Origin: a virus
Lineage: Duplodnaviria; Heunggongvirae; Uroviricota; Caudoviricetes
IMG/VR virus record: IMGVR_UViG_3300050821_008494
Strand: one strand, 5' to 3'
Length of the DNA stretch: 64,000 nucleotides
A program made the position numbers and the translations under genes. The notes below the pieces were generated by a model, which searched no databases, was not told where the DNA came from, and worked only from the letters and a program-made list of their open reading frames with translations. Positions 21,820 through 60,806 of the stretch are shown here, piece by piece. The number at the start of each line of letters is the position of its first letter. Position 1 is the stretch's first letter.

Positions 21820-22155
21820 ATGGCATTCCAGCCCGAGCCCGACGGCCCCGATGTCCCTCCTCTCATGAGGCGCATCCTCGGAATCCTGATACTCATAATC
21901 ATACTTCTCGGGACAGCAGTCACCATAGTCTACGGCTACATCATCAACACGACATTCGACTCCAACCTCCAAGGCCTCCCTCTCTACGCTCAACTTCCTG
22001 CCGCAGCTCAAGGAGTCTTCGGGACAGTAGTGACTTGGCAGCTCAACACCTACGCCTTCATTCCGGGAGTAGTCCTCATCCTAGCAATCTTCGGAACAAT
22101 AGCCGCAATCTTCGGCACAAGGTCCCGCCACGAGGACGTTCAGGAGAGCTACTAA
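21820..22155 (+). CDS. membrane protein
   Basis: ORF track; TM segments. Confidence 0.45.
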   Translation: MAFQPEPDGPDVPPLMRRILGILILIIILLGTAVTIVYGYIINTTFDSNLQGLPLYAQLPAAAQGVFGTVVTWQLNTYAFIPGVVLILAIFGTIAAIFGTRSRHEDVQESY

Positions 22156-29564: not shown

Positions 29565-29863
29565 CGACAGAAGAGCGGGTCATCAGAACCTCCCTGTCAG
29601 TCTTCGACAAGGTCCTGTTAGCCGCTTCATTCCTAGTAGGCTTCACCTGTGCAGGCTTCGAGACACTAGGTCTTCAGGCCGTCTTCCGTGCACTCTCTGA
29701 TGCTTATCCAAACACTCCTAACGCTCAGTATGGAGAGATATTCGCAGACTTCGTCTTCGGAGTCCTCACATTCCTAGTCTCCATGTCAACATTCCTCCGA
29801 ATAGCCGACTTAGTCGATTCCCGGATTCACCCGAAGCCGGTTACCCCAGAGGCCCGGTCATGA
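29561..29863 (+). CDS. membrane protein
   Basis: ATGA overlap. Confidence 0.4.
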   Translation: MTTEERVIRTSLSVFDKVLLAASFLVGFTCAGFETLGLQAVFRALSDAYPNTPNAQYGEIFADFVFGVLTFLVSMSTFLRIADLVDSRIHPKPVTPEARS

Positions 29864-30621
29864 ACACCGACTCCATAGCCTTCAAGGGTCTTGTTGGCTT
29901 TGCCTTCATCTTGATGCTCCTCATCGGCCTCGGAGTCTACGCCTACCTCCCAGCAGACCTCTCCCAGACGACAACATCAACCGTAACCTCAGCCACAACC
30001 CTCCCTGCGGTGACTTCAACGATAACCCGGACAACGACCTCAGTCTTCGCCACAACTCTCCCGGTCCCCACAACCCTCGTTCAGACCTCAGTCCAGACAG
30101 AGACCACCAGCATAGTCTCCACCTCCATCTACACAACCCTCTCAGTATCAGTAGTCACACTCACCCAGAACTTCACGAAGACCACAACCCAAACCTCTTT
30201 CCTAACCTCAGTCTCAACAACCACAGTAACCTCCACAGTATCCTCAACGCCAACTACCACATCCTCAACCTCCACAAGCACAGGCCCTCTTAGCATCACG
30301 AGTGTCGGCATCACCGGCTCCGCGAACGGCTCATGTCAGCCTCAGAGCCCTCCCTTCGGAGCCTTCGCTCAATACCAATGTGTCGTCGTAGTCGGCCAGA
30401 GCGGGGCCATCACCTTCACCGGAAGGAACTCCCTAGCAGCAACCCAATGCCTAACATGGACAACCAACAGCACATCCATAATCGCCGTTGCCCAGACGCA
30501 ATCCTTCGCCTCCTGTTCGAACGGAGGCATCCAAATCGTCTACTCCTCGTGGTCTCTTGGGTTTGGGCTCTCGTCTTCATCTCCAAACACCCTTCAGGAA
30601 GTCACGTTCGTCTTCTACTAG
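29860..30621 (+). CDS. Thr-rich secreted or membrane-anchored protein
   Basis: signal anchor then about 150 aa of Thr/Ser/Val-rich low complexity; reminiscent of Thr-rich virion proteins of crenarchaeal viruses. Confidence 0.5.
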   Translation: MNTDSIAFKGLVGFAFILMLLIGLGVYAYLPADLSQTTTSTVTSATTLPAVTSTITRTTTSVFATTLPVPTTLVQTSVQTETTSIVSTSIYTTLSVSVVTLTQNFTKTTTQTSFLTSVSTTTVTSTVSSTPTTTSSTSTSTGPLSITSVGITGSANGSCQPQSPPFGAFAQYQCVVVVGQSGAITFTGRNSLAATQCLTWTTNSTSIIAVAQTQSFASCSNGGIQIVYSSWSLGFGLSSSSPNTLQEVTFVFY

Positions 30622-30638
30622 ACCAACAGTTCTGTAAA

Positions 30639-30666
30639 CAGACAGTCGTGTCTGCTCATTAAATAT
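30639..30666. promoter_or_regulatory. palindrome CAGACA-gtcg-TGTCTG followed by TATA-like cattaaatat
   Basis: about 25-50 nt upstream of the 30689/30707 start. Confidence 0.3.
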
Positions 30667-30688
30667 CAGAAATCCTCTCCCGAAGCCG

Positions 30689-31096
30689 TTGTCCAAGACG
30701 CGCCTGATGCTCGGCTCCTGCTCTGTCATTGTCCTAGTAGCCCTACTTTCGGCTCCTGCTGCATTCGCCAGCGTCTATGAGAGCGGCTCATTCGGTCGCT
30801 CAAGTGCCTACGGCTGCGGCTCAGCATACGTGACATACGAGGTAGACTACAACGGACCCGGTGACTACTCCTACTCCTACTCCGTCTCCACATGGTGGGC
30901 TTCTAGCTGCTCAGCAGGGGCACCGTGTTCACTTCCCTCCTACTGGTATGACTCTGACCAATCTGGAAGCGGCGACACCTCTTCTCCTCCTCAATGGACA
31001 AGCATCAGCTTCTCTAGTGACTACTGGGGATATTGCCCTGACGGAAACCTCTACGCTACAGGCGACCAGATTGTAGTCTCTGTCCCAACCGGGTAA
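30689..31096 (+). CDS. secreted Tyr/Ser-rich protein
   Basis: signal peptide; TTG or ATG (30707) start. Confidence 0.45.
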   Translation: MSKTRLMLGSCSVIVLVALLSAPAAFASVYESGSFGRSSAYGCGSAYVTYEVDYNGPGDYSYSYSVSTWWASSCSAGAPCSLPSYWYDSDQSGSGDTSSPPQWTSISFSSDYWGYCPDGNLYATGDQIVVSVPTG

Positions 31097-32818: not shown

Positions 32819-33195
32819 CGCGAAAATACCTAAGTCACGGCGAGCGCAAACTAGCAGGTATCATTAGACGGAACGGCATAGCTCTCAGCTACACCGGCAA
32901 CCCAAAGCACAAGACGGCCTTCTGGGTAACATTCTCAGATGGCACGCACGCCTGCCCGGACTACATGAACCAGAACAAGAGGAAGGTCCTAGAGCTTTGG
33001 GGCTCGGGAGTTCATACAATAGAAGAAATGACAGCACGAGCAGGCAAATACCGCGAGAAGAATTGGGACTGCTTTCTACTCAATGACTTCGACCTCTATC
33101 ATACCCCGGAGCCGAAGCTAGTGAAGCAGATTGTGGACTTTGTCGAACGTCAGATGCCTTCTGTTTCTGCCGGAACTACAACACCTTTGCCGTAG
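32815..33195 (+). CDS. hypothetical protein
   Basis: GTGA overlap; convergent overlap with minus-strand nuclease gene. Confidence 0.4.
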   Translation: MTRKYLSHGERKLAGIIRRNGIALSYTGNPKHKTAFWVTFSDGTHACPDYMNQNKRKVLELWGSGVHTIEEMTARAGKYREKNWDCFLLNDFDLYHTPEPKLVKQIVDFVERQMPSVSAGTTTPLP

Positions 33196-33659
33196 ATTAT
33201 CTCTCTCTGAATCTTCCTAGCTTGTGTTGAGAGTTTCTGGTCGTATTCGTCGAGCTGCACTAACATAGAGGCAAGTCTGGCATCTTTTACCTCTATGAAT
33301 CTAACCGTTTGTGAATTAGATACCACTCCTACTACCAGATTCAGTTTCAAATTCATAATCTTGCCGAGTCTCCAAGCCCTCTCTATTGCTATGTTCTCCA
33401 GAAATCCTCCCCTGATTACCGAGCCATGTGATTTCACTTCTATGAAGATTTTGCCGTCCTCATCTAGCAAGTCTCCCTTTGGCAACCCAGAATGAAACTT
33501 CTTTCCATATTTCTCCTCGGCCCATTGCATAGCCTTGGCTTCCGACAGCATTCCAGTCTTTCCGTCTCTTAGCTTTGAGGTCAAGTATCTAGAGAAGACC
33601 TCTTGAGAAAGAGAGTAATCAGAGCACAAGTCTTCTATCAATTTGAGTCCGTAACTCAT
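33150..33659 (-). CDS. PD-(D/E)xK nuclease, Hjc-like (putative Holliday junction resolvase or restriction-like nuclease)
   Basis: GDLLDEDGKIFIEVKS resembles the Hjc VDLIA....IFECK core (D...ExK). Confidence 0.45.
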   Translation of the reverse strand: MSYGLKLIEDLCSDYSLSQEVFSRYLTSKLRDGKTGMLSEAKAMQWAEEKYGKKFHSGLPKGDLLDEDGKIFIEVKSHGSVIRGGFLENIAIERAWRLGKIMNLKLNLVVGVVSNSQTVRFIEVKDARLASMLVQLDEYDQKLSTQARKIQREIIYGKGVVVPAETEGI

Positions 33660-34465
33660 TTCGATTTCATCCTCGGAGCGTTTGCTCTTTCCATGAGGAG
33701 CCTCTCTGCTTCAACTTCATCTAAGTAGCCCTCTACCTGCTTCTCCGTCTGTCCTGTAGTCTTGCTGATAGTAGAAGTGCTTGCCCCATCTCTCTTCATC
33801 TTGTTAATCAAAGAGTAGCGAGCTGAGTGCGTGTTGGCTATATGTCTCCGTGCAAACTTCTTGTAACCGTTCAGTGTCCTCGTCTCTAGTATCTTTATGA
33901 ACAAGTCTCTGTCGGAATCTAGACATTCTTGAGGTATGACTAGCAGCCGTGTCTTCGCGTTCTCCATGTCAGGTATGAATTTGGTGCAGACGCAGCCCTT
34001 GTTCTTACACTTGCCTCTTTCTCCCTTGACTCCAGTCAGAGAATGACCGTTCGTCTCGCTCTTCGAAGTCTTGATGTGACTACACGTCTTGCAATGGAGC
34101 ACGGTCTTCCGGACTCGAACTCTCATTGACCTTGCACCAGTCTTGACCCATGTCTGCCAAGCATCGAACCCTTCTATTGCGCGGCAACCTCCTACAATTT
34201 GTATGAGGTAGACCTCGAACCAGCCTAGTCTGACGGGAGCTTCTTCATCTAGGTCGATGCGAGCCTCGTTGTCTAAGTCACCTATGTTAGGCAGAGCCTG
34301 TGCGATTGCGCTCCGAGAAGCTAGGTCTCTCTCCTTCAAAATGTCGGACGCGAGACGCTCGACGGTCGAGTCGTAGTCAACCCTGTGGTCCCACTTCACC
34401 AATTCAGATTCGGGTATTGAGACCCCATTTGATAAACGTAAGGAGCCCAGACCTTCTGCACTCAT
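33656..34465 (-). CDS. tyrosine recombinase/integrase-like protein with inserted Cys-rich Zn cluster
   Basis: box I-like GGCRAIEG (Arg-I); box II-like RRHIANTH ... GQTEKQVEGYL (R-H...H...Y) collinear with XerD LRHSFATH...GHSDLSTTQIYTHV; central CKTCSH...CKNKGCVC. Confidence 0.45.
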   Translation of the reverse strand: MSAEGLGSLRLSNGVSIPESELVKWDHRVDYDSTVERLASDILKERDLASRSAIAQALPNIGDLDNEARIDLDEEAPVRLGWFEVYLIQIVGGCRAIEGFDAWQTWVKTGARSMRVRVRKTVLHCKTCSHIKTSKSETNGHSLTGVKGERGKCKNKGCVCTKFIPDMENAKTRLLVIPQECLDSDRDLFIKILETRTLNGYKKFARRHIANTHSARYSLINKMKRDGASTSTISKTTGQTEKQVEGYLDEVEAERLLMERANAPRMKSK

Positions 34466-34789
34466 CCTCTAGGCTCATCATCGCTCTACCTGTTAGTCCT
34501 CCGAGATAACTACTGACTATGACCACGAGGACTCAGTCGCCGTTCGTCGTAACAACTCCGGGATTTCTACGGTGCGTCCTCTCACCGCCAATTGGACGAC
34601 GGCCTACCGTAGGCATTTCTGACCATGGGGCTCCATCCTATCAGATGAGGTCTCACACAAGCAACGCTCGCGGGTGAGCACCCTTCTCCCCGCCATCTCT
34701 AGGAGTAGGAGTTGAAGCCCTTAGAAAACGACGGTGTTGTATTCCTGTTTAGGAATGACTAAAATAGACGCTGTCTGTTTGTCTACACC

Positions 34790-35242
34790 GTGCAGGCCGC
34801 AGCTGCTGTCCCTCAACCGCGTCCTCCTCAGCCTGCTCCTACCAACCCTGCTACCATTGAGTTTGAGCTTATGGAGTTCGTCAATGATACTCCGAGGGAG
34901 GTCCCTCTTGAGATGCGCAGACAGAACTGGGGCTTTGTGACCCGTCTACTCGGCCTCACTATGCTAGCTGAGAACGAGGCCAACGCACAAATCTACCGCA
35001 TACACGAGCAAGCCCTGTTTCTGCAGTCGTCGGTTCCTGCAAGATTCATAACCGACAATTTCATAAATTGGATTCGTCAGTTCGAAGAACTTTGTGTTCT
35101 GAAGGTCTACCAAGCCAAGCTCCGACCTCGTGGCTGGATTAACGAGCGTATGCTCGGAGCCTACACAGTTCAAGAAACAGTCCAAGCAGGGAGACAGAGC
35201 AGCGGGAGCCGCAAGCGAATCTTCCCCATAGGACCGATTTGA
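34790..35242 (+). CDS. hypothetical protein
   Basis: ORF track; true start may be the internal ATG near 34871. Confidence 0.35.
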   Translation: MQAAAAVPQPRPPQPAPTNPATIEFELMEFVNDTPREVPLEMRRQNWGFVTRLLGLTMLAENEANAQIYRIHEQALFLQSSVPARFITDNFINWIRQFEELCVLKVYQAKLRPRGWINERMLGAYTVQETVQAGRQSSGSRKRIFPIGPI

Positions 35243-37020: not shown

Positions 37021-38196
37021 ATGTCAACCGTCACTCCAGTTGAGTTGCACAGAGATTCGGGTCCTCTCGAAGATATGAGAGCACCTCTTGAGATTATCAA
37101 GTGGAAGACCAAAAACGGATTTCCTCCCAAGAACGCACCATGCTATGACGCTAGGGCGTTTCCTCTTGAGAAGGCCATGGGAACTCACAAGATTCAAGGA
37201 GACCGTTTCCAAGGTAAGTCCGCTCTCGGAGAGACAATCTGCTTCATGCTCTGGAACACCGGAGCTACAATCTATGACATCTACGCTGCAAACGACCAAG
37301 AGAACGCGGCATGGCTAGAGAGCCCTTGTGCTGACTACGTTACTCTGCTAGTCGGCTCCAATTGTAGCCTCACGTTCGACCACAAGCAATACAAGTTCAT
37401 GAAGGCGATAGACCTCGACCCTAGCAAGCAGGGTATGCGCAACATCTACGTCGCGTGTAAACGCTTCTTCCAGACAGAAGACGACTACTACAAGGCGATG
37501 TGGAACCTCTCTGACAAATTCAAGACCCGCACGACCTATGATTGGGTTGACGTCATATTCCTGCGAGAAGCCCAAGAGGTCATCACAGGAGTGATGCGCG
37601 CAGGAGTCGCTCGAAGCGAGAAGGACGCAGCAACTGCTTTCATAAGATTCCACAACACTCTCTTCCACTTCGGCTACGCCGTTGTCCTAGACTCCCAGAG
37701 AGACGTTGAAGTCTCTAAGTCCGTCAGAGAGTTGGCAGATTGGAACTACTTCAAGAATATGGGAGGCCTCGAAATCCCTCACAAGTATTGGCACACGTTC
37801 CGAAAGGCCGACCCAGACAGGATGTATCGAGAGCTAGAGAAATGGCAGTTCATCCTCTACGCTAAAGGCAAAGTTGGTTTGGGAGTCAATCTTCAACCGG
37901 ATTGGCACATCAACCGTGGAAGAGACCTCCTTCTGAAGCTAGGCATCCATGAGCACTTCGAAGGCTCTCCTAACACTCCAGTGCCTACGTTGAGCGGTCA
38001 GGGAGGCCCCGGTAGGCCAAAGGAGTTCGGAGTCCGCCATGAAATCGAGATAAGAATTCTAGGTGGCAAATCCTACACCACAATAGAGAACGAGCTTAAC
38101 ACTTCAGACAAGACAATCACTAAAGTCAAGAAGGACATGATAGCGCGGGGAATCCTTAACCCTGACGGCTCCCTCAAGGTTACTGCTGTGCCATGA
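37021..38196 (+). CDS. hypothetical 391-aa protein with C-terminal HTH
   Basis: C-terminal ILGGKSYTTIENELNTSDKTITKVKKDM helix-turn-helix-like segment. Confidence 0.5.
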   Translation: MSTVTPVELHRDSGPLEDMRAPLEIIKWKTKNGFPPKNAPCYDARAFPLEKAMGTHKIQGDRFQGKSALGETICFMLWNTGATIYDIYAANDQENAAWLESPCADYVTLLVGSNCSLTFDHKQYKFMKAIDLDPSKQGMRNIYVACKRFFQTEDDYYKAMWNLSDKFKTRTTYDWVDVIFLREAQEVITGVMRAGVARSEKDAATAFIRFHNTLFHFGYAVVLDSQRDVEVSKSVRELADWNYFKNMGGLEIPHKYWHTFRKADPDRMYRELEKWQFILYAKGKVGLGVNLQPDWHINRGRDLLLKLGIHEHFEGSPNTPVPTLSGQGGPGRPKEFGVRHEIEIRILGGKSYTTIENELNTSDKTITKVKKDMIARGILNPDGSLKVTAVP

Positions 38197-47899: not shown

Positions 47900-48817
47900 T
47901 TGGCCGCTCCGTCACCGGAGCCCTTGAGCGGACTCCGCAAGTATCTCTCCGGTCGTCGAGCTAACGGCATCATCTCAGCCATAGCAGCAGGCGCACTCAT
48001 TCAAGCGATGCTCATCTTCGCAGTCGAACTCTTCCAAGTCAACGTCCCTCTCATCCAATTCTTCATAGGCCAAACTTCCGGCTCCGGAGGTCAGAGCCTC
48101 CAATACCAACCTCTCGGTTCCTCCCCATCAGGGCAAGCAGTCTCCGGATTCCTCTACATCATACCTGCCATAGCAGCCACCTTCGGCATGGTCTACCTAG
48201 CACGGCGCAATCCTCGTGTCTGGTTCAAGCTCGTGATAGGAATTGCCTTCGCGCTCGGCTCCTTCTTCATCGGCTTCGTCTCCTATTGGTGGTGGCTCGG
48301 CTTCTGGCCAACGGCAATCCTCATAGTCGGTCTGGCCACGGCAGTCTTGGTATCCTTTACGTTCAAGTCACGCACAAGAGCAGCTCTCGCAGGAGCACCT
48401 TTCAAAATCTGGTTCGCCGTAGGTTTTGCCTTTCTCTCTTTCCTCACACTCCCATTCTTCATGTGCCTAGCCATAATCTGCGGCTTTGCAGTCTGGGACA
48501 TAATCGCCGTCTTCCGAGGACCTCTCAAAGAAGTCGTCAAGTCAGAAGGCAAGGCCTTCCAATTCCTCCGCACTGCCCTGATGCTTGACTTCGGTCTCGG
48601 TGGCATCGGCCTCGGAGACCTCTACCTCTACAGCCTCATGACAATGCTCGCAGCGTCCCTCGGCTTCCATCAAGTCGAGGCCTCATACATTGCAATCCTC
48701 GCCGGAGTCATGCTCAGCTACTACCTCCTCCGCACACGCGAGAAGATTGGCCTGCCGGGGCTTCCTTTGCCGGTCCTCTTCTTCATAGTCTCCGTAGGAG
48801 CACTCACACTTGCCTAG
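47900..48817 (+). CDS. presenilin/signal-peptide-peptidase family (GxGD-type) intramembrane aspartyl protease homolog
   Basis: VWDIIAVFRGPLKEV vs PS1 VYDLVAVLCPKGPLRMLVE; GIGLGDLYLYS vs LGLGDFIFYS; LPGLPLPV vs LPALPISI (PAL motif). Confidence 0.55.
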   Translation: MAAPSPEPLSGLRKYLSGRRANGIISAIAAGALIQAMLIFAVELFQVNVPLIQFFIGQTSGSGGQSLQYQPLGSSPSGQAVSGFLYIIPAIAATFGMVYLARRNPRVWFKLVIGIAFALGSFFIGFVSYWWWLGFWPTAILIVGLATAVLVSFTFKSRTRAALAGAPFKIWFAVGFAFLSFLTLPFFMCLAIICGFAVWDIIAVFRGPLKEVVKSEGKAFQFLRTALMLDFGLGGIGLGDLYLYSLMTMLAASLGFHQVEASYIAILAGVMLSYYLLRTREKIGLPGLPLPVLFFIVSVGALTLA

Positions 48818-49016
48818 AGTCAACCCTCTCGAAGGGTGGAAGCTCTACAGCTCCTTCGGTATCAAACCTATTCCGAAACGCCTATGGTGGGTGTTCAGAT
48901 ACATTCCTCCTTCACGTCTTCGAAGGATGCGAGAAGGAACTTATCTCGCCATAGGTCCAAAGAGCCAAGTTGCCATGGTCACGGTTAGTTACGCTACTCC
49001 CAAGAGGGAGAGATAA
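48810..49016 (+). CDS. hypothetical basic protein
   Basis: TTG start. Confidence 0.3.
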   Translation: MPRVNPLEGWKLYSSFGIKPIPKRLWWVFRYIPPSRLRRMREGTYLAIGPKSQVAMVTVSYATPKRER

Positions 49017-49192
49017 TCACATCCTACAACGGAGGCATCTTCTGGACTTCGGGCAACGTCCACAACGTCGAATACGGCACAGTCCTCCTTGTCCTGACAA
49101 TCGTCGAACTCCGCTTCAACGTCCTCAAGCGCTTCCGCAGCTACATTGGCGACTTCTTCGGACGCCCAATTCACACCATCGAAATCTTCTCA

Positions 49193-49774
49193 ATGTCGGT
49201 CATCGTCTGGTTCTGGCTGAGCCTCTACTTCTTCGTTAAGTTCAACACCAACCTCATCAACCTCCGCGTAGTCAACGCCCTCGTTGGCACAGGGGTCGGC
49301 ACAGGACATTGGTTCGCATGGCTCGCAATAGCAGCCATAGCAACCCGTTGGGGATGGGACAACGCCCCAGCAGGCTTCCTCACGGTCGGACTCTACAGCG
49401 CCCTCCACGAAGGCTTCTGGTATGTCTTCTACTATGCCATCTACCCCGGCCAGATTGCACTGACATGGCTCTTCTATCTCCCATTCGGCTACCTCGGCCT
49501 CTGCCTGTCAATCTCCTACCTCCTCCTCTCCCGCAACCGCAAAGTTGACGAGCGCTACGCCAGCATACCCAAGATTCCAACCCGCATCTTCCTCATGACA
49601 ATCGCCCTCTTCCTAGTCACCGACATCATGTGGGCTATGGCAGGCTTCCCCGTCACTGTCCGTCTCGACACCGGACCCACTCCTCAATTCCCAGACCTCT
49701 CAACAAATCTCATCGAGGACAACAGCTGGGTGACCCCGGCACTTCCGCTCATCTTCTCCGAGAGGGAAAACTAG
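49193..49774 (+). CDS. polytopic membrane protein, member 1 of triplicated membrane-domain family
   Basis: TRWGWDNAPAGFLTVGLYSALHEGFW motif; in-frame upstream extension lacks ATG. Confidence 0.45.
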   Translation: MSVIVWFWLSLYFFVKFNTNLINLRVVNALVGTGVGTGHWFAWLAIAAIATRWGWDNAPAGFLTVGLYSALHEGFWYVFYYAIYPGQIALTWLFYLPFGYLGLCLSISYLLLSRNRKVDERYASIPKIPTRIFLMTIALFLVTDIMWAMAGFPVTVRLDTGPTPQFPDLSTNLIEDNSWVTPALPLIFSEREN

Positions 49775-49777
49775 CCC

Positions 49778-49936
49778 GTGTGCGACAGAACCTGCACAGT
49801 TCACAAGAAGCCCTGTAAGGCAACTCACAACGGCAAAGACCCAATCCAAGGCCTCCTCAAAAGCCGGAGAGAACACTATCACCAAGGTTGGGCAATCTTC
49901 GGCAACGAGAACTGCAAATGGAGCCGTCCGAAATGA
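49778..49936 (+). CDS. small Cys-rich protein
   Basis: GTG start; stop overlaps next ATG. Confidence 0.3.
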   Translation: MCDRTCTVHKKPCKATHNGKDPIQGLLKSRREHYHQGWAIFGNENCKWSRPK

Positions 49937-50547
49937 GCGCCACACATGGCATCCCTGTTGAAAGTGACTTAGCGAAATCCGTCACTCGCCCCATCTACTA
50001 CTTCATATCAATCGTAGCAGTCGCGGCAGGCTTCTACTACATCTACACATACGACGGCCTCTCAAACCTCTCCCAAGCCTTCCCCGGCAACTTCAACGAC
50101 CGCATCGAGATTCCCGTCCCATTCACTCACTACCTTCTCCCAATCCTCCCTCCATCAGCGTTCGCCCTCGGCATCTCCCTCTTCTTCTACGAGCGCAAGT
50201 TTGGCTGGCGAGCCCTTCCACTTATCTTCATGGTCTCTGGCGCATTCGACTTCCTCTGGAACCGCGATGCCATCACCTTCATCTTCCAAGGAGACTTCTG
50301 GGTCTTCTTCCAACTCGCTATAATGATTGGTGGCTGGCTCGCTGCAGGACGTCCCAAGTTCCTCTCAACCAAGTATCTCTTCATCTGCCTCTTCCTCTTC
50401 GCTGTGACAAACTTCACCTACAACCAGCCATTCGAGTTCGGCCTTCTCCTCTACGTCTACACTTCGACATCTTGGCCATCAAAGCGAGATACTGTCCTCA
50501 TTCGCGAGGCCTCCGAATATATTCCAAGCAGGAGTCCTCCAACTTGA
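49933..50547 (+). CDS. polytopic membrane protein, member 2
   Basis: RKFGWRALPLIFMVSGAFDFLWN motif. Confidence 0.45.
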   Translation: MSATHGIPVESDLAKSVTRPIYYFISIVAVAAGFYYIYTYDGLSNLSQAFPGNFNDRIEIPVPFTHYLLPILPPSAFALGISLFFYERKFGWRALPLIFMVSGAFDFLWNRDAITFIFQGDFWVFFQLAIMIGGWLAAGRPKFLSTKYLFICLFLFAVTNFTYNQPFEFGLLLYVYTSTSWPSKRDTVLIREASEYIPSRSPPT

Positions 50548-50831
50548 GTGACGACTCTTCCAAGGCAGACAAGCTCGGCCTCTTCCAGAAAGTCCTCGAT
50601 GCCTTCGCGGAAGGCAGGACAATATCACGCAAAGACCTTCACCTCCTCCAAGACCTAGCCTACAGGCTTACAGAGACAGACGATGTCCGAAGGTTCCGTC
50701 TCAAGCTCCTGTTCGTGAAGGACATCGTAATCTGGATTAGCTTCCTCGCCACAGTCATCTTCGTAGTCCAGTATGCCTTCGATTTCATAGCCGCACTTCA
50801 CGGCTTTGGAAGGATTGGGAACAGCTTTTGA
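50544..50831 (+). CDS. small protein with C-terminal TM
   Basis: TTGA overlap. Confidence 0.35.
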   Translation: MSDDSSKADKLGLFQKVLDAFAEGRTISRKDLHLLQDLAYRLTETDDVRRFRLKLLFVKDIVIWISFLATVIFVVQYAFDFIAALHGFGRIGNSF

Positions 50832-52069
50832 CAATCACCCAGACGCTCGGCAACTCGAAGCTCCTCAACATAGGAGCCTACGCAGGAACCATATTCTTCA
50901 TGCTCTGGGCTCTCTACAACGCACTCACCTACGGTTGGGACTACTACAGCGACTACATCCCATTCCTCCCGAAGGGCTTCCGCATCTTTGCGGCATGGCC
51001 ATACTCCATCCTAGTCTTCGGAATCCTCGCCCTCTACTGCATCAAGCGCTACGGCTGGCCGGGTCTCTTCTTTGCCGCAGCCATCAACGAACTCTGGGAA
51101 CTCGCCTACGACATGACACCGGCAGTCATCCAAGTCCGCTACTGCCCCGAGGTCTACTCCGTCCCCGGCCAAAACTACCTCTTCTGCGCAGTCAACGAGT
51201 CAGCAATCTTCGACCCGCACTTCTTCCTCTACATTGGCCAAGGCATAGCTCTCGTCCTCTTCGCATTCGCAATGGTCCTCCAATTCAGAGGCTACACCTT
51301 CAGCATCAAGAACCTCGGCAAGCTCTTCATCCTCCAATGGCTCTTCTCCATAGCAACGTGGCCATGGAGCATCTGGTATGAGTTCCTCGCCGAAGTCTCG
51401 GTCGTCCTTCTCTTCTTCCTTCTCGAAGTCCCGCAAGATGCCGTGAGCATCTACGGTCAAGCAACCGACAAGCTTGACGAGAAGTTCTTTGACCATCAAA
51501 CCGAGCAGGGCTTCTCCGTAGCAGCGACCGCTGTGGCAAACTCTCTCAAGACAATTCTGTCACCCACAGAGGCCCTCGATGTTGGCTGTGGCAAAGGCTT
51601 TCTCGTGCGCCAGCTTAACCTCTTGGGAGTCAAGTCCTGCGGAATGGACAAGAGCCTCTACGCCATACAACACAGAGCCTCCGGTCTCGACCAAAATGAA
51701 CTCATGTTAGGCGACATATCCGCACGCACATCACTAATGGACGGCTACTTCGACCTAGTCACCTGCATCGGAGTCCTTCAATACCTAGACGACAAGCACT
51801 CTGCTCTCAGGGAGATGAGGCGTCTACTCCAGACCGGAGGAAAGCTCTTCATAGCGTTCCCACTTCATAGGCGTAGCCAGAAGCCCTTTGCCGAATCCGT
51901 AGAGCATCTCGGCTTCAAGTTCCTTCCCGACTCCTCCGAGGAACTCGCCAAGCTCTACCCATACATCCTCGGCAGAAAGTTCGGCCTCCTCAGCAAGTGG
52001 CCATTCAAAGTCCTGATACCCCGTTTCCAGAAAGACGACTTCGCCTTCCTCTGCTTTCAGGCGATATGA
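50828..52069 (+). CDS. membrane domain (member 3) fused to class I SAM-dependent methyltransferase
   Basis: N-terminal KRYGWPGLFFAAAINELWELAYD; C-terminal LDVGCGKGFLVRQL (motif I), DLVTCIGVLQYL, GGKLFIAFP. Confidence 0.55.
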   Translation: MTITQTLGNSKLLNIGAYAGTIFFMLWALYNALTYGWDYYSDYIPFLPKGFRIFAAWPYSILVFGILALYCIKRYGWPGLFFAAAINELWELAYDMTPAVIQVRYCPEVYSVPGQNYLFCAVNESAIFDPHFFLYIGQGIALVLFAFAMVLQFRGYTFSIKNLGKLFILQWLFSIATWPWSIWYEFLAEVSVVLLFFLLEVPQDAVSIYGQATDKLDEKFFDHQTEQGFSVAATAVANSLKTILSPTEALDVGCGKGFLVRQLNLLGVKSCGMDKSLYAIQHRASGLDQNELMLGDISARTSLMDGYFDLVTCIGVLQYLDDKHSALREMRRLLQTGGKLFIAFPLHRRSQKPFAESVEHLGFKFLPDSSEELAKLYPYILGRKFGLLSKWPFKVLIPRFQKDDFAFLCFQAI

Positions 52070-52770
52070 TGGAGCCACAATCTAGGATTCCAGAGTTCTC
52101 CGGCACCACAGTATCCATTGTCATCCCTGCTCACAACGAGCGCGACACAATACGCAACATAGTGGCAGGCTGTCTCCCATACGGCGAAGTCATCGTTGTA
52201 GATGACGGCAGCACGGATGACACTTCAGCACAAGCCACAGAAGCAGGGACTAGAGCTAACCCCAAGCTCGTAATCCTACACAAGAACTTCGGTTACTCCT
52301 ACGCCATCAAGAAAGGCTATGAAGCCTCAACAGGCGAAATCATAGCCCTCGTAGATGCAGACGGACAGCAGAACCCCGACGAACTCCACAGGCTCCTTTC
52401 CCCAATCCTCAACGACGAAGCCGACATGGTCATCGGTTCCAAAATCCTCGGCACCATGGACTACGAGCCAGCAATCGCGAACTCCCTTATGAACGAGACA
52501 TGGCAGAACCTCATCCTGTGGCGCTTCGGAGTAAACCTCACTCACCCCTTCAGCGGCATGAGGGCAATGCGCAAGTCCTGCATCGACATGAGCGCCCTCA
52601 AATCTAATCGCTTCGAGTCCATGCTGGAGCTTGACATCTCATTCATCAAGAACGGTTACAGGATTCTCGAAGTCCCTCGCGTCGCCCGAGCCCGGACCAA
52701 AGGCAAGTCTCATGTCACACTAGCAGACGGCCTTCGTGTCATGTGGAGAGGAGCACAGCTCCTCCTATGA
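52066..52770 (+). CDS. GT2-family glycosyltransferase (dolichyl-phosphate sugar synthase / GtrB-like)
   Basis: VSIVIPAHNE, VIVVDDGSTDDT, DADGQ. Confidence 0.6.
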   Translation: MMEPQSRIPEFSGTTVSIVIPAHNERDTIRNIVAGCLPYGEVIVVDDGSTDDTSAQATEAGTRANPKLVILHKNFGYSYAIKKGYEASTGEIIALVDADGQQNPDELHRLLSPILNDEADMVIGSKILGTMDYEPAIANSLMNETWQNLILWRFGVNLTHPFSGMRAMRKSCIDMSALKSNRFESMLELDISFIKNGYRILEVPRVARARTKGKSHVTLADGLRVMWRGAQLLL

Positions 52771-53264
52771 CTCTCTTCAGCTGGACCTTCCGCAGAGTCC
52801 TCGCCGTCTCAGTAGCAACCCCAGCACTAGCCATAGGCTACATAGTCACATGGCTCCTCATAGTCCATGTCCACTACCAAACAGTAGGCGTCCTCTCCTC
52901 CGTCTTCATAGGAGACATCTCAGCATTCATATTCGGCCAAGCCACACAAGACTACCAATACAGGTTCATGCTCCGCTTCAAGTCCTTCCGCGAGATAATG
53001 CCGCAGCGCAAGAGCCCCAAATCAGACACACCACAGAAGTTCATCAAGCGCAGGTTCCTCAGCTTCCTAACCCTCTTCCCTCCCATGGCATTCAACTACC
53101 TCGCCGTCTTCGTCCTCATCTCCTTCATCCACTTCCACACCGTCTGGATTCTCTCGGCAGTCCTAGTCGGCGATGGTCTGGGTTTCGCTTTCAACAGTCT
53201 CACCCTCGACTATCAGTTTAAGTTCCTCATGCACTTCGAGTCCTTCAAGGAGCTTCTAGATTGA
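52767..53264 (+). CDS. GtrA-like 4-TM protein with internal tandem duplication
   Basis: two halves each TM + DYQ(Y/F)(R/K)F(M/L)(L/M)(R/H)F(K/E)SF(R/K)E(I/L)(M/L); ATGA overlap with GT2. Confidence 0.45.
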   Translation: MTLFSWTFRRVLAVSVATPALAIGYIVTWLLIVHVHYQTVGVLSSVFIGDISAFIFGQATQDYQYRFMLRFKSFREIMPQRKSPKSDTPQKFIKRRFLSFLTLFPPMAFNYLAVFVLISFIHFHTVWILSAVLVGDGLGFAFNSLTLDYQFKFLMHFESFKELLD

Positions 53265-53406
53265 AGCCCGAACCAGCCAAGCCTATGCCGTCCAAGAAGA
53301 CAGCATCACAGCAAGAGACCATCGAAGAGCAGGACATCAACAAAGAAGCAGCAGCATGGTGCGACCCTCCCTAAGTTAAATAGCAGCCCAACAGACAAGC
53401 CCTTCC

Positions 53407-54546
53407 GTGCAGAGCGACCCTTTGCAACTGAGCCTCAACATTTGCGGCGTCTCTGGAAGTCGTCGCCACGGAAACACTCTCTACCTCGTAGAGCGAGCCC
53501 TTAGAGCTGCCAGCGTCTTCTTCGACGAGATGAATGTCTCCTCCAGAGGGCACCTCAAGATAACCTCAACCTTCTCCAAAGTGGAGACTGGCTTCGACAA
53601 ATCCTCAGATGCCGAGGTCCTTATGTCACGAGCAGACGGCCTCCTTCTGGCCTCTCCCGTTTACTTCGGTTCCATATCCCCGTCCCTCAATCAAGCACTC
53701 AAGAACATATCACGAATCGAGGGACTCTCCGAGAAGTCCGGAGCCTGCGTAACTATCGGCACTCAGCGCAATGGAGGGCAAGAGACCGCCATCGAAGACA
53801 TCTACCGCTGGTTCATGGCTCGCAGCGTGACCTTCGTCGGTAACGGTCCCGTGACATCCCAATACGGAGGCACAGTCTGGGGAGGCGCAATCGGCACGGC
53901 AGAGAACGACGAGTATGGACTTCACACGACAGAAGGCACAGGCAAGCGCCTAGCCCAAGACGTCCTCCTGCGAGCCATAGGCAAGAAGGTCACATTGGAG
54001 AACTCCACAATCCGTGTCCCTCGCTTCCTCTTCTTCTGCGACTCCGAAACACCCCAGTGGCGTCTCGACCATTCCAAAGGCCGAGTCCCTCCATACACCG
54101 CAGACTACCTATTCCTCAAGGAGGACTTGGCCAACGTCGAAGACTGCGTCGCCTGCGCAACCTGCCCTCCCGGCAATCTCAAGGAGCCGGGAGTCTACGG
54201 TTGCATCTTCAACGACGACCTCAACACCAACTACGAGCGCTTCTACTCAGCCAACACAATCATCTGTTCCGCGAACGACCAAGACGGCCTCTGCTCTCCA
54301 GACTACTGGAAAGTCCTCAACCGCATGAGAAGCGTCCGACGGAACAACTACGACCTTACGGGACGCTGCGGAGCCATGATGGGAACTTCCATGGTTCCTC
54401 TCAAGTGGCTTATCCGCAACAATCTTCCCATCGTCCCCTCAGAGCCCAACCTCATGTATCGCGAATCCCTCTACCGCATGGCAGGCCTCGAATACATGAA
54501 GTCAATCGGAATGTCCCCTTGGACGGAGCCGACAATCCATGAGTAG
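53407..54546 (+). CDS. NAD(P)H-dependent FMN reductase-like flavoprotein with Cys-rich C-terminal domain
   Basis: ADGLLLASPVYFGSISPSLNQALK (flavodoxin-like FMN reductase); C-terminal CVACATCPP plus 5 more Cys; GTG start. Confidence 0.5.
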   Translation: MQSDPLQLSLNICGVSGSRRHGNTLYLVERALRAASVFFDEMNVSSRGHLKITSTFSKVETGFDKSSDAEVLMSRADGLLLASPVYFGSISPSLNQALKNISRIEGLSEKSGACVTIGTQRNGGQETAIEDIYRWFMARSVTFVGNGPVTSQYGGTVWGGAIGTAENDEYGLHTTEGTGKRLAQDVLLRAIGKKVTLENSTIRVPRFLFFCDSETPQWRLDHSKGRVPPYTADYLFLKEDLANVEDCVACATCPPGNLKEPGVYGCIFNDDLNTNYERFYSANTIICSANDQDGLCSPDYWKVLNRMRSVRRNNYDLTGRCGAMMGTSMVPLKWLIRNNLPIVPSEPNLMYRESLYRMAGLEYMKSIGMSPWTEPTIHE

Positions 54547-54736
54547 TAGAACAAAACTGTCACAATCTCAGATAATACAGCTAGCAGACGACTTAGTCGT
54601 CGAGATTCTATCTAGCCCTGCCATGGCTCCATTCCGTGAAGCGTGGTTCTCTGGAAGATGGGACTTGCCAATGTTCGAATACTCACGAAGACAGAAGCAG
54701 CGAATCCGTTTGGCTATGAGGGGCTTCTTCACTTGA
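54539..54736 (+). CDS. small hypothetical protein
   Basis: ATGA overlap. Confidence 0.3.
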   Translation: MSSRTKLSQSQIIQLADDLVVEILSSPAMAPFREAWFSGRWDLPMFEYSRRQKQRIRLAMRGFFT

Positions 54737-55017
54737 CAGACTCAAAGCTCCTCGGGACATTCCAGCAAGGTCACACCAAGGTCTTTCCCGACCGCATAGA
54801 GATTGACGGCAACAAGCTCCTCTTCTCCGACCTCCATCACATCGAAGGAGAAGGCACCGAAGTCATCATAGTCCTTCACAACGGCCTACCAGTCTCTCTC
54901 AGCATCACAGGCGAGGAAATCGTCTCAGCTTCCAACTTCAAGATAATGGTCTGGAGGGCCTACAAGCTCTGGAAGAAAGACCCCACAGCAGGCAGTCACG
55001 GAGTCGTCGGCTATTGA
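54733..55017 (+). CDS. hypothetical protein
   Basis: TTGA overlap in frame of ORF 54643..55017. Confidence 0.35.
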   Translation: MTDSKLLGTFQQGHTKVFPDRIEIDGNKLLFSDLHHIEGEGTEVIIVLHNGLPVSLSITGEEIVSASNFKIMVWRAYKLWKKDPTAGSHGVVGY

Positions 55018-55123
55018 ACGACACACTCAAGGGATTTCTGGCTCTGGTTGGCTTCCTCCTTTTCATAGACGGGCTCGCATTAGGAATGACCTTCTTTACA
55101 GTTCACATGGTAGCTCTGATACC

Positions 55124-55999
55124 ATGAAGACCGTCCTAGTCACCGGAGCAGGAGGCCCCGCAGGAATGGCAGTCCTCCAGTCTCTCAAAGTAGCCCCAGA
55201 GAAGTTCAAGACCGTTGCCGTAGATTCAAGCCCACGCGCCGCAGGCCTTCTCAAGGCCACATACTCCAGAGTCGTCCTCAAGTGCAACGAGCCCGGTTAC
55301 ATAGACCAGCTCAGAGCACTCTGCGAGGAATACCACGTTGACGTCATCATACCTACCGTCGATGAAGAGATTCCATACCTCGTCCAATCCGGAGTCTTTA
55401 GCGATGGCATGGCACGCGCAATCCTTCCGGACGAGCGAGCAGTCAAGATGGCACAGGACAAACTCTCCTACCAATTTCTCGAAGTCGATACTCCAACAAC
55501 CGTCCCCTTCCCCGCCATAATCAAGATGCGCCGAGGTCGAGGCTCCAAGGGCATCCGCTTCCTCGACAAGGAGCCAATAGACATGATAGTCCAAGAGCGC
55601 ATCCCCGGTGACGTCTACCTCGCACAAGCCCTCTGCAAAGACGGTGAAGTCCTGCGCTGGTGCATCACAAAGCGCCTCGACCCTGCCGTCGGTCCGGCAA
55701 CCTCGGCAGTCTCAGCCTACGACCTCAACATAGCCGACCGGCTTCAGAAAGTCGTCAAGACCCTCCGCTGGAACGGAGCCATAGGAATCGAGTTCATCCT
55801 TTCCAAGACCAACGGCTCATACTACCTCATAGACATCAACGCCCGCATCTGCGGTCAGTCCCATCTCTGCACCATGGCAGGCATGAACCTCGCATACGGT
55901 CTAGTCCAGCTCTCCCTCGGCCAAGAGGTCACAATCTCCAAGGAATACAAAACAGACGTCACCTTCGTCCGCGCATGGGAGGACACCACAATTGGATGA
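55124..55999 (+). CDS. ATP-grasp family enzyme (carboxylate-amine ligase-like)
   Basis: VLVTGAGGPAG N-domain; EFILSKTNGSYYLIDINARICGQS C-domain. Confidence 0.5.
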   Translation: MKTVLVTGAGGPAGMAVLQSLKVAPEKFKTVAVDSSPRAAGLLKATYSRVVLKCNEPGYIDQLRALCEEYHVDVIIPTVDEEIPYLVQSGVFSDGMARAILPDERAVKMAQDKLSYQFLEVDTPTTVPFPAIIKMRRGRGSKGIRFLDKEPIDMIVQERIPGDVYLAQALCKDGEVLRWCITKRLDPAVGPATSAVSAYDLNIADRLQKVVKTLRWNGAIGIEFILSKTNGSYYLIDINARICGQSHLCTMAGMNLAYGLVQLSLGQEVTISKEYKTDVTFVRAWEDTTIG

Positions 56000-56219
56000 A
56001 GACATCTACTCTGTGGACTCCATACGGAAGTTCGCGAATCAAACCGAGGTCGAACCTACAGGCGAGTTCCATTCTGTCTTATGTCGCGTCGCCTATCAAC
56101 TCCAATCCAAAATAATCACTCGCGAGCAGGCAATCGAGAGGCTCAAGCCCTACGATTATCCAAACAGGCTGAACCCCGAAATCAACCAAGTCGATTTCTC
56201 CGAGGGTCCCACACGATGA
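55992..56219 (+). CDS. hypothetical protein
   Basis: ORF track. Confidence 0.35.
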   Translation: MDEDIYSVDSIRKFANQTEVEPTGEFHSVLCRVAYQLQSKIITREQAIERLKPYDYPNRLNPEINQVDFSEGPTR

Positions 56220-56752
56220 GCCCTACTCGACCGGGTGTAGCTACACGTCCGAGCGAGCAACGTCTCAAGAGTAAAATTTACCAGAGTCACGTCATTCGTA
56301 GAATCATATCCGGTTCCGAAGTCTGCAACAAGTGTGGTGCACCTTTAGTCCTCGACGAGAATTGGCAGGTCTACTACGCGAATCTCGTTTGCAAGTCGTG
56401 TAGAAGCGAAGAGGGCAAAAGGGAATATTGGAAATCCGGCAGGCTCCTAAAATCTACCAAAGCTCCGTTTCTCGCCATGAGGATGAAGGTAGAGGTTTTC
56501 TCTCATTATTGCAGAGGCAAGATTAAGTGTCTTCGATGCGGAGAAAACGATTTGAGAGTTCTTAGCCTAGACCATATCAACGGAAGCACTAAGGAGGAGA
56601 AGCTACTACGAAGGGCTACCGGCTCTAATCTCTACAAGCATCTCAGACGCAACAATTACCCTCCGGGCTTTCAGGTTCTGTGTATGAACTGCCAATATAG
56701 GAAGAGGTGGGATAAGAGAGAATTCAGGAAGATGGCGGAGAAGCGCAATTGA
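56216..56752 (+). CDS. HNH endonuclease-like protein
   Basis: CNKCG...CKSC and LSLDHINGS...N...LCMNCQ; locally AT-richer. Confidence 0.5.
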   Translation: MSPTRPGVATRPSEQRLKSKIYQSHVIRRIISGSEVCNKCGAPLVLDENWQVYYANLVCKSCRSEEGKREYWKSGRLLKSTKAPFLAMRMKVEVFSHYCRGKIKCLRCGENDLRVLSLDHINGSTKEEKLLRRATGSNLYKHLRRNNYPPGFQVLCMNCQYRKRWDKREFRKMAEKRN

Positions 56753-57357: not shown

Positions 57358-57473
57358 ACCGTGATGGCCAGTTCCTCGACCGTGCGGCAGAGGTCAGCGT
57401 CACAGAGAAAGAGATAGACCGCGTCATTGGAGAACTCACGGAGAGCTTTGGCTTCTCCGTCGTCTACTCCGCA

Positions 57474-57826: not shown

Positions 57827-57832
57827 GCCCAC

Positions 57833-60791: not shown

Positions 60792-60806
60792 CCCACGGCT
60801 ATTAAA

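What the first reader, a model, noticed from the sequence alone, without database searches (positions are those of the whole stretch)
33150..34789. Minus-strand recombination module: tyrosine integrase with a Zn-cluster insertion plus Hjc-like nuclease, next to a structured 325-bp noncoding region
The only minus-strand genes in the first 38 kb are these two. The first is a 169-aa PD-(D/E)xK nuclease (GDLLDEDGKIFIEVKS, Hjc-like). The second is a 269-aa protein with recombinase box I (GGCRAIEG) and box II/catalytic Tyr (RRHIANTH...GQTEKQVEGYL), split by a Cys-rich insertion (CKTCSH...CKNKGCVC). Downstream lies the largest noncoding gap (34466-34789). It contains the perfect palindrome GCCTAC-C-GTAGGC and the direct repeats CTCACCGCCA and CTCCCCGCCA. 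This may be an att or ori region, and the window may be or contain an integrated element.
Basis: partly seen in the sequence, partly recalled or inferred. Interest (0 to 1): 0.55.

Follow-up and report, generated by a model that had tools for sequence, protein, structure and literature searches.

The report
Small archaeal recombinase with zinc insert
A short tyrosine recombinase on a very large archaeal mobile element carries a conserved Cys/His-rich module inserted directly after its catalytic lysine, an arrangement I found undescribed; its neighbour gene is an orphan, not a proven nuclease, and the adjacent noncoding DNA looks like an ordinary promoter region.

The parts
33656..34465 (-). 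269-aa tyrosine recombinase made of a catalytic domain only. Catalytic residues are R95, K120, H213, R216, Q239 (His in most relatives) and Y247. The conserved protein starts near K24/W25 (about 34396), so the first ~23 codons may not be translated.
33950..34105 (-). Cys/His-rich insertion (residues 121-172) in the beta2-beta3 hairpin, immediately after catalytic K120. Pattern: C-x(1,2)-C-x-H ... G-H ... R-G-x-C-x(4,5)-C-x-C. It has 10 Lys/Arg against 4 Asp/Glu.
   Evidence: The K120-R173 loop is about 4-8 aa in most of the 54 short-loop members (up to 16 aa) and 43-66 aa in 18 of 83. C125, C128, H130, C153, C158 and C160 are invariant and H141 is at least 90% conserved in the 18-member subfamily. 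Model pLDDT is 94-97 over the insert, with short beta strands. Charge count.
33150..33659 (-). 169-aa orphan protein, apparently translationally coupled to the recombinase by a 4-nt ATGA overlap. It carries a PD-(D/E)xK-like motif (D63 ... E74-V-K76) and a second 'RFIEVK' at 120-125. GC is 0.437 against 0.525 for the window.
   Evidence: Only itself among 5.8 billion clusters. No Pfam, NCBIfam or PDB hit, and only sub-threshold PHROG (E 0.026) and PADLOC (E 0.041) matches. No phage or IMG/VR relative. Hjc tests are weak. Motif statistics. GC.
34466..34789 (.). Divergent intergenic region between the recombinase and the next rightward gene. It extends to 34870 if that gene starts at its ATG.
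   Evidence: Not structured. No Rfam match or tRNA. Repeats are at chance level. No DNA similarity to L002 or L003 beyond the coding part, although those contigs hold only 123 and 178 bp upstream.
34759..34766 (+). TATA-box-like CTAAAATA, 31 nt upstream of GTG 34790. This is the putative promoter that restarts rightward transcription after the minus-strand cassette.
   Evidence: The motif class [CT]TAAATA / TTAAATA / CTAAAATA occurs only on the plus strand. 5 of 6 hits lie in the 13% of sequence that is intergenic, upstream of genes at 21307, 23716, 31506, 53422 and here. The motif was defined post hoc.
34418..34434 (.). Proximal arm of a 17-nt inverted repeat (15/17 complementary), inside the non-conserved 5' end of the recombinase ORF.
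   Evidence: Only 7 of 212 tiles score as well (p about 0.03). The arm region is conserved at DNA level in L002 although the reading frame is not. There is no consistent equivalent in L014, L016 or L017.
34639..34655 (.). Distal arm of the same inverted repeat, in the gap, 204 nt from the proximal arm.
34602..34614 (.). It is at chance level.
34790..35242 (+). First gene of the rightward operon that resumes after the cassette. It is 150 aa from GTG 34790; the source annotation starts it at ATG 34871 (123 aa).
37021..38196 (+). 391-aa protein of unknown function, conserved next to an insert-type recombinase in another element (40% identity to the L017 446-aa protein).
   Evidence: E 3e-62. No Pfam, PHROG or PDB match.

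Best explanation
The 269-aa gene encodes a catalytically competent, catalytic-domain-only tyrosine recombinase from an archaeal mobile-element family. Like other members of the superfamily, it should cleave and rejoin DNA through a 3'-phosphotyrosyl link to Y247. R95, H213 and R216 would activate the scissile phosphate, and K120 on the beta2-beta3 hairpin would act as the general acid. These roles are inferred from the superfamily.

Its special feature is a basic, roughly 50-residue module with seven conserved Cys/His residues, grafted onto the tip of that hairpin. The module most likely binds one or two zinc ions. I infer that it adds DNA contacts next to the cleavage site. That would partly replace the N-terminal core-binding domain, which this short family lacks.

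The gene is co-expressed with a downstream orphan gene in a two-gene minus-strand cassette set into an otherwise rightward-transcribed element of at least 185 kb. The 324-bp gap is the divergent promoter region. Its right part holds the TATA-like box that restarts rightward transcription.

The biological role is not settled. I rate an accessory recombinase (multimer resolution or local inversion) at about 0.4, the element's integrase at about 0.35, and other roles at about 0.25.
For: Shown:
- The family profile finds 148 representatives.
- 59/83 members hit PF00589 and 8 hit PF16795.
- The profile hits XerA 4a8e at 2e-6, plus Tn1549 Int, P2 Int and XerD.
- R95 and R216 are in 83/83 members, K120 and Y247 in 82/83, H213 in 81/83.
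- The AF2 model has pLDDT 91.8 and pTM 0.85.
- In BFVD, Sputnik V10 integrase matches at 3e-8.
- A second, unrelated CxxC...H...GH insert sits at the same loop in 6 members.
- Source names are archaeal: Nitrososphaeria, Methanomethylicia, Desulfurococcaceae. A related element encodes TFIIB.

For a non-integrase role:
- Related elements L014 and L016 each carry an additional 407- or 452-aa canonical integrase near a contig edge. In L014 it lies beside a host-like cobalamin adenosyltransferase gene.
- In both, the insert-type recombinase sits internally, about 0.5 kb (L016) to 1.3 kb (L014) downstream of a shared replication-type gene that has weak DUF3987 similarity in L014.
Against: - The protein itself has no Pfam, NCBIfam or PDB sequence hit. 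Only a PHROG integrase family matches its C-terminal third, at 1.3e-9.
- The second His/Trp of the catalytic set is Gln here. Gln occurs in 12/83 family members.
- No recombination site was identified. Lox/dif-like inverted arms are at chance frequency (27 observed, 33 expected).
- Zinc binding, DNA contact by the insert and catalytic activity are all inferred. I could not access the model coordinates to check how the ligands cluster.
- The promoter motif was defined post hoc.
- Three of nine distant short-type relatives lie at the very ends of IMG/VR viral contigs. That placement fits an integrase role for the wider family.
Confidence: 0.6

Rival explanations
1. First reader's view. The protein is the element's integrase, and the adjacent gap holds attP (or a hybrid att site), so the window is or contains an integrated element.
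For: - Relatives are labelled integrase or XerD by their sources.
- Three of nine distant relatives lie at the extreme ends of IMG/VR viral contigs.
- The best viral structural match is the Sputnik V10 integrase.
- Thaumarchaeal att sites can be as short as 8 bp (PMC8371274), so an att site could escape detection.
Against: - No tRNA in the window or in 15 related loci.
- No exact long direct repeats in the window.
- The gap's repeats are at chance level.
- No host genes in the window or within about 9 kb upstream and 18 kb downstream. Replication and helicase genes lie there instead.
- GC is uniform across the window.
- Related elements have a separate canonical integrase.
Confidence: 0.3
2. 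The recombinase is a FimB/FimE-like invertase. It would flip the roughly 238-bp segment bounded by the 17-nt inverted repeat (34418-34434 and 34639-34655). That would switch a promoter between the recombinase cassette and the rightward operon.
For: - The inverted repeat matches at 15/17 and lies directly at the recombinase's 5' end. Only 7 of 212 tiles score as well.
- The proximal arm sits in a stretch that is conserved at DNA level in L002 but not at protein level.
- The enzyme is short and lacks an N-terminal domain, like the Fim invertases (own knowledge).
Against: - p of about 0.03 is weak after looking at many features.
- There is no comparable arrangement in L014, L016 or L017.
- All three assemblies carrying this gene give the identical 269-aa product, so they share one orientation.
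- The TATA-like box lies outside the segment.
Confidence: 0.08
3. The protein is a recombinase-derived DNA-binding regulator that no longer recombines, like the SPbeta MrpR and phi3T SroF repressors.
For: - The His-to-Gln change at position 239.
- No recombination site was found.
Against: The nucleophile Y247 and R95, K120, H213 and R216 are all retained. Apart from H213, which is at least 90% conserved, they are invariant across the 18-member insert subfamily despite about 30% overall identity. That argues for selection on catalysis.
Confidence: 0.07
4. The 169-aa protein is an Hjc-type PD-(D/E)xK Holliday-junction nuclease that works with the recombinase.
For: - The motif GDLLDEDGKIFIEVKS resembles Hjc VDLVAGNGKKYLCIEVK, with 10/22 identities.
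- A second RFIEV strand lies at similar spacing to Hjc (sequence inspection).
- The motif occurs in only 1 of 95 window ORFs and in 1.6% of shuffles.
- Summed Smith-Waterman and HMM tests both give p of about 0.025.
- The gene is apparently translationally coupled to the recombinase.
Against: - BLASTP E = 0.44 and hhalign probability 0.8%.
- No significant Pfam, PDB, NCBIfam, PADLOC or PHROG support.
- The protein is an orphan.
- It is not conserved beside any related recombinase.
- Tyrosine recombinases resolve their own junctions and need no nuclease (established knowledge).
Confidence: 0.25

Closest known systems
Short XerC/XerD-like integrases of archaeal proviruses and integrated elements (PF00589; Nitrososphaerota iMGEs, PMC6563490; review PMC8371274)
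   Same: Same sequence family by profile search. Sizes are 165-200 aa without the insert. They share the catalytic R-K-H-R-H-Y set and have no separate core-binding domain.
   Different: The window protein has a 52-aa Cys/His insert after the catalytic Lys, has Gln in place of the second His, and is not itself recognised by Pfam. No att site or tRNA target was found. The review does not contain the words zinc or cysteine.
Sputnik virophage V10 integrase (B4YNF0)
   Same: Second-best viral structural match (Foldseek E 3.3e-8, TM 0.59-0.69). It is a short XerD-family integrase whose closest homologues are reported in archaeal proviruses (PMC3671162).
   Different: 15% identity and a eukaryotic-virus context. 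I did not test whether it has any hairpin insert.
Cre, XerA, XerH and lambda Int catalytic domains (1kbu, 5hxy/4a8e, 5jjv, 1z1b)
   Different: Those enzymes have an N-terminal core-binding domain of about 100 aa and a short hairpin turn. Here the N-terminal part is essentially one long helix, and the hairpin turn carries the Cys/His module.
Zinc modules in other tyrosine recombinases: the ALOG/DIRS1-type zinc ribbon (PMC3537659) and the nimavirus C2H2 domain (PMC10871703)
   Same: They set a precedent for a zinc-binding DNA-contact module attached to a tyrosine recombinase.
   Different: [quoted passage not shown] Here the module is inserted within the catalytic domain at the lysine hairpin, in archaeal elements.
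Archaeal Holliday junction resolvase Hjc (1gef, 2wcw, 1ob8, 4tkd)
   Same: The 169-aa protein shares a D...E-V-K motif with flanking hydrophobic strands, and a second RFIEV strand.
   Different: Similarity is not statistically significant. The protein is about 45 aa longer at the N-terminus, has no relatives, and its fold was not tested.

Membership tests
Tyrosine recombinase superfamily | Catalytic residues Arg I, beta-hairpin Lys, His, Arg II, His/Trp and the nucleophilic Tyr | tested here: met
   R95, K120, H213, R216 and Y247 are present and 98-100% conserved in 83 relatives. The fifth position is Q239, which is His in 69 members and Gln in 12. This position is known to vary (His or Trp) in the superfamily (own knowledge).
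Tyrosine recombinase superfamily | Catalytic-domain fold | tested here: met
Tyrosine recombinase superfamily | Significant match to the curated family model (PF00589) | tested here: inconclusive
   The protein itself has no PF00589 hit at E<=1. 59 of 83 profile-linked relatives hit it, with a best E of 3e-14. The family profile hits solved recombinases down to 2e-6.
Tyrosine recombinase superfamily | Cognate recombination site (inverted binding arms around a 6-8 bp crossover region) | tested here: inconclusive
   Core-like sites are at chance frequency (27 against 33 expected). The only one near the gene is inside the ORF at 34187-34209.
Integrase of an integrated element (att-flanked provirus or iMGE) | Direct att repeats flanking the element, often in a tRNA gene, with host DNA outside | tested here: not met
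   No tRNA, no exact long direct repeats, and no host genes in about 92 kb inspected. The rest of the 185-kb or longer contig could not be inspected, and very short att sites would escape detection.
SSV-type (suicidal) archaeal integrases | attP located inside the integrase ORF; similarity to PF16795 | tested here: inconclusive
Zinc-binding structural module | Four or more conserved Cys/His ligands in knuckle-like spacing | tested here: met
   C125-x2-C128-x-H130, H141 and C153-x4-C158-x-C160 are invariant or at least 90% conserved in 18 sequences that share about 30% identity.
Zinc-binding structural module | Actual metal binding and stoichiometry | not testable with these tools
   This needs metal analysis of purified protein.
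Hjc / PD-(D/E)xK nucleases (169-aa protein) | Catalytic motif D ... (D/E)-x-K on adjacent beta strands | tested here: inconclusive
   D63-x10-E74-V-K76 is present at the sequence level. It occurs in 1 of 95 window ORFs and 32 of 2000 shuffles. Placement on strands was not verified.
Hjc / PD-(D/E)xK nucleases (169-aa protein) | Statistically supported sequence or profile similarity | tested here: not met
   BLASTP E 0.44, hhalign probability 0.8%, empirical p 0.025. No Pfam or PDB hits.
Hjc / PD-(D/E)xK nucleases (169-aa protein) | Alpha-beta-beta-beta-alpha-beta restriction-endonuclease-like fold | not tested
As an orphan, the protein would have had to be folded from a single sequence.

The most novel reading that the evidence does not exclude
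Insert-bearing, catalytic-domain-only tyrosine recombinases form a distinct archaeal class. In this reading, a one- or two-zinc module grafted directly after the catalytic lysine takes over DNA recognition from the missing core-binding domain. These enzymes would act as replicon-maintenance recombinases (resolvases or invertases) of large archaeal extrachromosomal elements rather than as integrases. The independent acquisition of a second, C2H2-like module at the same loop would mark the hairpin tip as an evolvable specificity slot.
Probability: 0.25. Interest if true: 0.6.

Novelty: new variant of a known kind. Interest (0 to 1): 0.45.

Why it matters
Tyrosine recombinases are core tools of mobile-element biology and of genome engineering. 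Their DNA recognition is normally attributed to the N-terminal core-binding domain together with the catalytic domain.

A natural lineage that lacks the N-terminal domain, yet carries a conserved zinc-type module on the hairpin that delivers the catalytic lysine into the DNA, would show a different way to build site specificity. It would be a compact scaffold of about 220-270 aa to study.

The finding also marks a poorly known group of archaeal mobile elements. One member is at least 185 kb and consists almost entirely of orphan genes. The neighbouring "nuclease" and "att/ori" ideas do not currently add to this.

Tried and rejected
1. Direct Pfam, NCBIfam, PADLOC and PDB sequence searches with both proteins gave nothing significant.
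2. An AF2 run on the 3-sequence alignment was too poor to use (pLDDT 48). It was replaced by the 83-sequence run.
3. The afdb50 fold library was unavailable.
4. Searches for relatives of the 169-aa protein found none, in the 5.8-billion-cluster database, in phage records and in IMG/VR.
5. A tblastn search of phage records with the recombinase gave no match.
6. A genome-contig scan with the close alignment A1 found no relatives. Host taxonomy therefore rests on the source names of distant relatives.
7. Cluster look-up of the insert-bearing relatives showed that all are unnamed metagenomic singletons.
8. C94, next to Arg I, was considered as an eighth zinc ligand. I rejected it because it does not co-vary with the insert (8/18 against 15/54). 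C181 is enriched (9/18 against 2/54) but not conserved.
9. The gap as a structured RNA, att or ori region was rejected on fold z-scores, Rfam, repeat statistics and the absence of a GC-skew switch.
10. My first scoring scheme for the inverted repeat did not discriminate. I redid it.
11. The function of the conserved 391-aa neighbour could not be found: no PDB, Pfam or PHROG match.
12. The sigma-70 promoter scanner was not used, because the element is archaeal.
Full report
**What is there.** The two minus-strand ORFs exist exactly as described: 33656-34465 (269 aa) and 33150-33659 (169 aa). They overlap by 4 nt (ATGA), and the source databases call the same genes. They form a small leftward cassette in a region transcribed almost entirely rightward. 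The source annotation also calls five tiny minus-strand ORFs elsewhere in the first 38 kb. Four of them overlap a 253-aa plus-strand ORF and look doubtful.

**The 269-aa protein is a tyrosine recombinase.**
- On its own it is nearly invisible to curated libraries. It has no Pfam, NCBIfam, PADLOC or PDB sequence match. Only a PHROG 'integrase' family matches, over residues 171-241 at E 1.3e-9.
- It has just two close relatives among 5.8 billion protein clusters.
- A profile of those three sequences, searched exhaustively, found 148 cluster representatives.
- In an alignment of 83 of them, 59 individually match PF00589 (Phage_integrase) and 8 match PF16795.
- The family profile hits solved recombinases: P. 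abyssi XerA 4a8e at 2e-6, plus Tn1549 Int, P2 Int and XerD.
- The catalytic set is conserved. R95 and R216 occur in 83/83 members, K120 and Y247 in 82/83, and H213 in 81/83. The second His is Gln here, as in 12 of 83 members.
- With the 83-sequence alignment, AlphaFold gives pLDDT 91.8 and pTM 0.85. A 3-sequence attempt had failed.
- The best viral structural matches include the Sputnik V10 integrase. The literature relates that protein to archaeal provirus integrases (PMC3671162).
- Source names of relatives are archaeal: Nitrososphaeria, Methanomethylicia, Desulfurococcaceae, Micrarchaeaceae.

**The Cys-rich stretch is a true insertion at a mechanistically sensitive place.**
- In most of the 54 short-loop members (of 83), the loop between K120 and R173 is about 4-8 residues. 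That is the beta2-beta3 turn following the catalytic lysine, equivalent to lambda Int K235 by spacing from Arg I (own knowledge).
- In 18 members, including the window protein, the loop is 43-66 residues. The pattern is C-x(1,2)-C-x-H ... G-H ... R-G-x-C-x(4,5)-C-x-C.
- Within that subfamily, which averages about 30% identity, C125, C128, H130, C153, C158 and C160 are invariant and H141 is at least 90% conserved.
- The insert is basic, with 10 Lys/Arg against 4 Asp/Glu. It is modelled confidently (pLDDT 94-97) with short beta elements.
- Six other members carry an unrelated CxxC...H...GH insert at the same loop, and a few carry long Cys-free inserts.
- The family has only about 50-60 residues before Arg I. 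That leaves no core-binding domain.
- My inference is that the module binds zinc and adds DNA contacts beside the scissile phosphate. Neither point is shown.
- The held literature reports zinc modules in tyrosine recombinases only in N-terminal domains: ALOG/DIRS1 elements (PMC3537659) and nimaviruses (PMC10871703). The 2021 review of archaeal tyrosine recombinases mentions neither zinc nor cysteine.
- I therefore class this as a new variant of a known kind.

**Integrase or something else?**
- I found no tRNA in the window or in 15 related loci.
- There are no exact long direct repeats, and lox/dif-like sites are not in excess.
- The window is not a host region holding an island. Its first ~47 kb is almost all orphan ORFs, followed by a sugar-modification cluster.
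- The contig continues upstream into an RFC-like AAA+ protein, a PDDEXK_1 nuclease and a DUF3987 protein. Downstream it continues into an 1838-aa ORF and a DEAD/ResIII helicase.
- Three assemblies of 114-185 kb carry it. GC is even across the window.
- Two related elements, L014 and L016, share with each other the insert-type recombinase, an upstream ~465-aa gene (weak DUF3987 similarity in L014), and a separate 407- or 452-aa canonical integrase near a contig edge. That favours an accessory role such as resolution or inversion for the insert-type enzyme.
- Against that, three of nine distant short-type relatives sit at the very ends of IMG/VR viral contigs. That placement fits integrases.
- I leave the role open: accessory recombinase about 0.4, integrase about 0.35.

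**The 169-aa protein.**
- It is an orphan, with no significant match in any library.
- It is absent beside all five related recombinases I could inspect. In L002 and L016 a different small ORF overlaps the recombinase stop by 4 nt, so this slot appears to be variable.
- I retrieved real Hjc/Hje sequences from the PDB and compared them. BLASTP gives E 0.44 over a 22-residue motif, and hhalign gives probability 0.8%.
- Shuffle tests give p of about 0.025 for both summed Smith-Waterman and HMM scores.
- The D63-x10-E74-V-K76 motif is uncommon: 1 of 95 window ORFs and 1.6% of shuffles.
- Its GC is lower than the surroundings, 0.437 against 0.525.

**The noncoding gap.**
- It is 324 bp to the GTG at 34790, or 405 bp to the annotated ATG at 34871. 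It is not the largest gap in the window.
- It does not fold better than shuffles, with z -1.09 and -0.44, and has no Rfam match.
- Its palindrome and repeats are ordinary.
- It does hold a TATA-like CTAAAATA at 34759-34766, 31 nt before GTG 34790. This motif class occurs only on the plus strand, and 5 of 6 hits are intergenic, upstream of operon-leading genes. The motif was defined post hoc.
- A promoter is expected here, because the leftward cassette interrupts rightward transcription.
- One lead remains. A 15/17 inverted repeat has one arm in the non-conserved 5' end of the recombinase ORF (34418-34434) and the other in the gap (34639-34655). About 3% of tiles score as well, and relatives show no consistent equivalent. 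I list a Fim-like invertible switch as a low-probability rival.

**Verdict.**
- Supported: the recombinase and its Cys/His insertion.
- Not supported: the structured att/ori region and the integrated-element reading.
- Unproven: the nuclease.
- The finding is a new variant of a known enzyme class on an unusual, very large archaeal mobile element. Interest is moderate (0.45).

Noticed in passing
whole window; L018 1-8900 (upstream of the window); L020 10800-20762 (downstream): The contig looks like one very large archaeal mobile element or virus. Assemblies are 114,176 bp (Logan), 114,287 bp (ENA, ending near window 3089 and running leftward) and 185,236 bp (JGI). If collinear, they span more than 200 kb. 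Nearly all genes are on one strand and most are orphans. Upstream lie an RFC-like AAA+ protein, a PDDEXK_1 nuclease, DUF3987 and DUF6011. Downstream lie an 1838-aa ORF and a DEAD/ResIII helicase. No virion hallmark genes, rRNA or tRNA were recognised.
   Followed up: partly
window 47900-63371: A sugar-modification cluster inside the element: GT2, FMN reductase-like, PylC-like ATP-grasp, PIG-L deacetylase, NAD epimerase/GDP-mannose dehydratase, a GT4 on the minus strand (59652-60791), DegT aminotransferase, aldo-keto reductase and a class I methyltransferase.
   Followed up: partly
window 21276, 23665, 31469, 34759, 53376 (plus strand): A TATA-like motif ([CT]TAAATA / TTAAATA / CTAAAATA) is found only on the plus strand. 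Five of six hits are intergenic, 31-51 nt upstream of operon-leading start codons. This is a candidate archaeal promoter element of the whole element.
   Followed up: partly
proteins P0018, P0022, P0028, P0033, P0038, P0049 (also P0054, P0076): A second, unrelated zinc-finger-like insert (CxxC ... H ... GH, about 44 aa) occupies the same beta2-beta3 loop in six other family members. One member of the 83-sequence alignment (not identified) hits the Pfam GATA zinc finger at 5e-4. A few members have long Cys-free inserts there. The hairpin tip seems to be a recurrent insertion site.
   Followed up: partly
L014 13631-14854 and 5274-6677; L016 89-1447 and 3256-4647: Related elements carry both an insert-type short recombinase and a full-length canonical Phage_integrase. 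The short recombinase lies about 0.5-1.3 kb downstream of a gene of about 465 aa, which has weak DUF3987 similarity in L014. L014 also encodes TFIIB and has a host-like Cob_adeno_trans gene just beyond the canonical integrase.
   Followed up: partly
window 37021-38196 and 21820-22155: Two window genes of unknown function are shared with other recombinase-bearing elements. The 391-aa protein is 40% identical to the L017 446-aa protein. In L017 that gene lies about 0.4 kb upstream of the recombinase, separated by two small ORFs. The 111-aa protein is 47% identical to an L016 104-aa protein.
   Followed up: partly
window 34397-34465; L002 37-123: The first ~23 codons of the annotated recombinase are not conserved. 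P0003 starts at the equivalent of K24. L002 has an in-frame stop there, yet keeps DNA similarity (for example GGTCTCAATAC). Either the real start is the GTG at 34399, or this stretch is a conserved DNA element.
   Followed up: partly
L016 4647-4664 and 4728-4745: A perfect 18-nt inverted repeat (AAGGGGTAAAGGAGTAAA / TTTACTCCTTTACCCCTT) lies in the 515-bp gap upstream of the related recombinase gene in L016, with a partial third copy at 4639-4656.
   Followed up: no
window 34187-34209: A lox-like site, ACCTCCTAC-AATTT-GTATGAGGT (9-bp arms, 1 mismatch, 5-bp spacer), lies inside the recombinase ORF. Such sites occur at chance frequency in the window, but SSV-type integrases do carry attP inside their gene.
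   Followed up: no
window 29943-30729: The source annotation calls four tiny minus-strand genes (36-60 aa) where a 253-aa plus-strand ORF (29860-30621) also exists. One of the two annotations is probably wrong.
   Followed up: no
window 34519-34677: A 52-aa plus-strand ORF (ATG start) lies inside the gap. No gene caller picked it, and I did not test its coding potential.
   Followed up: no
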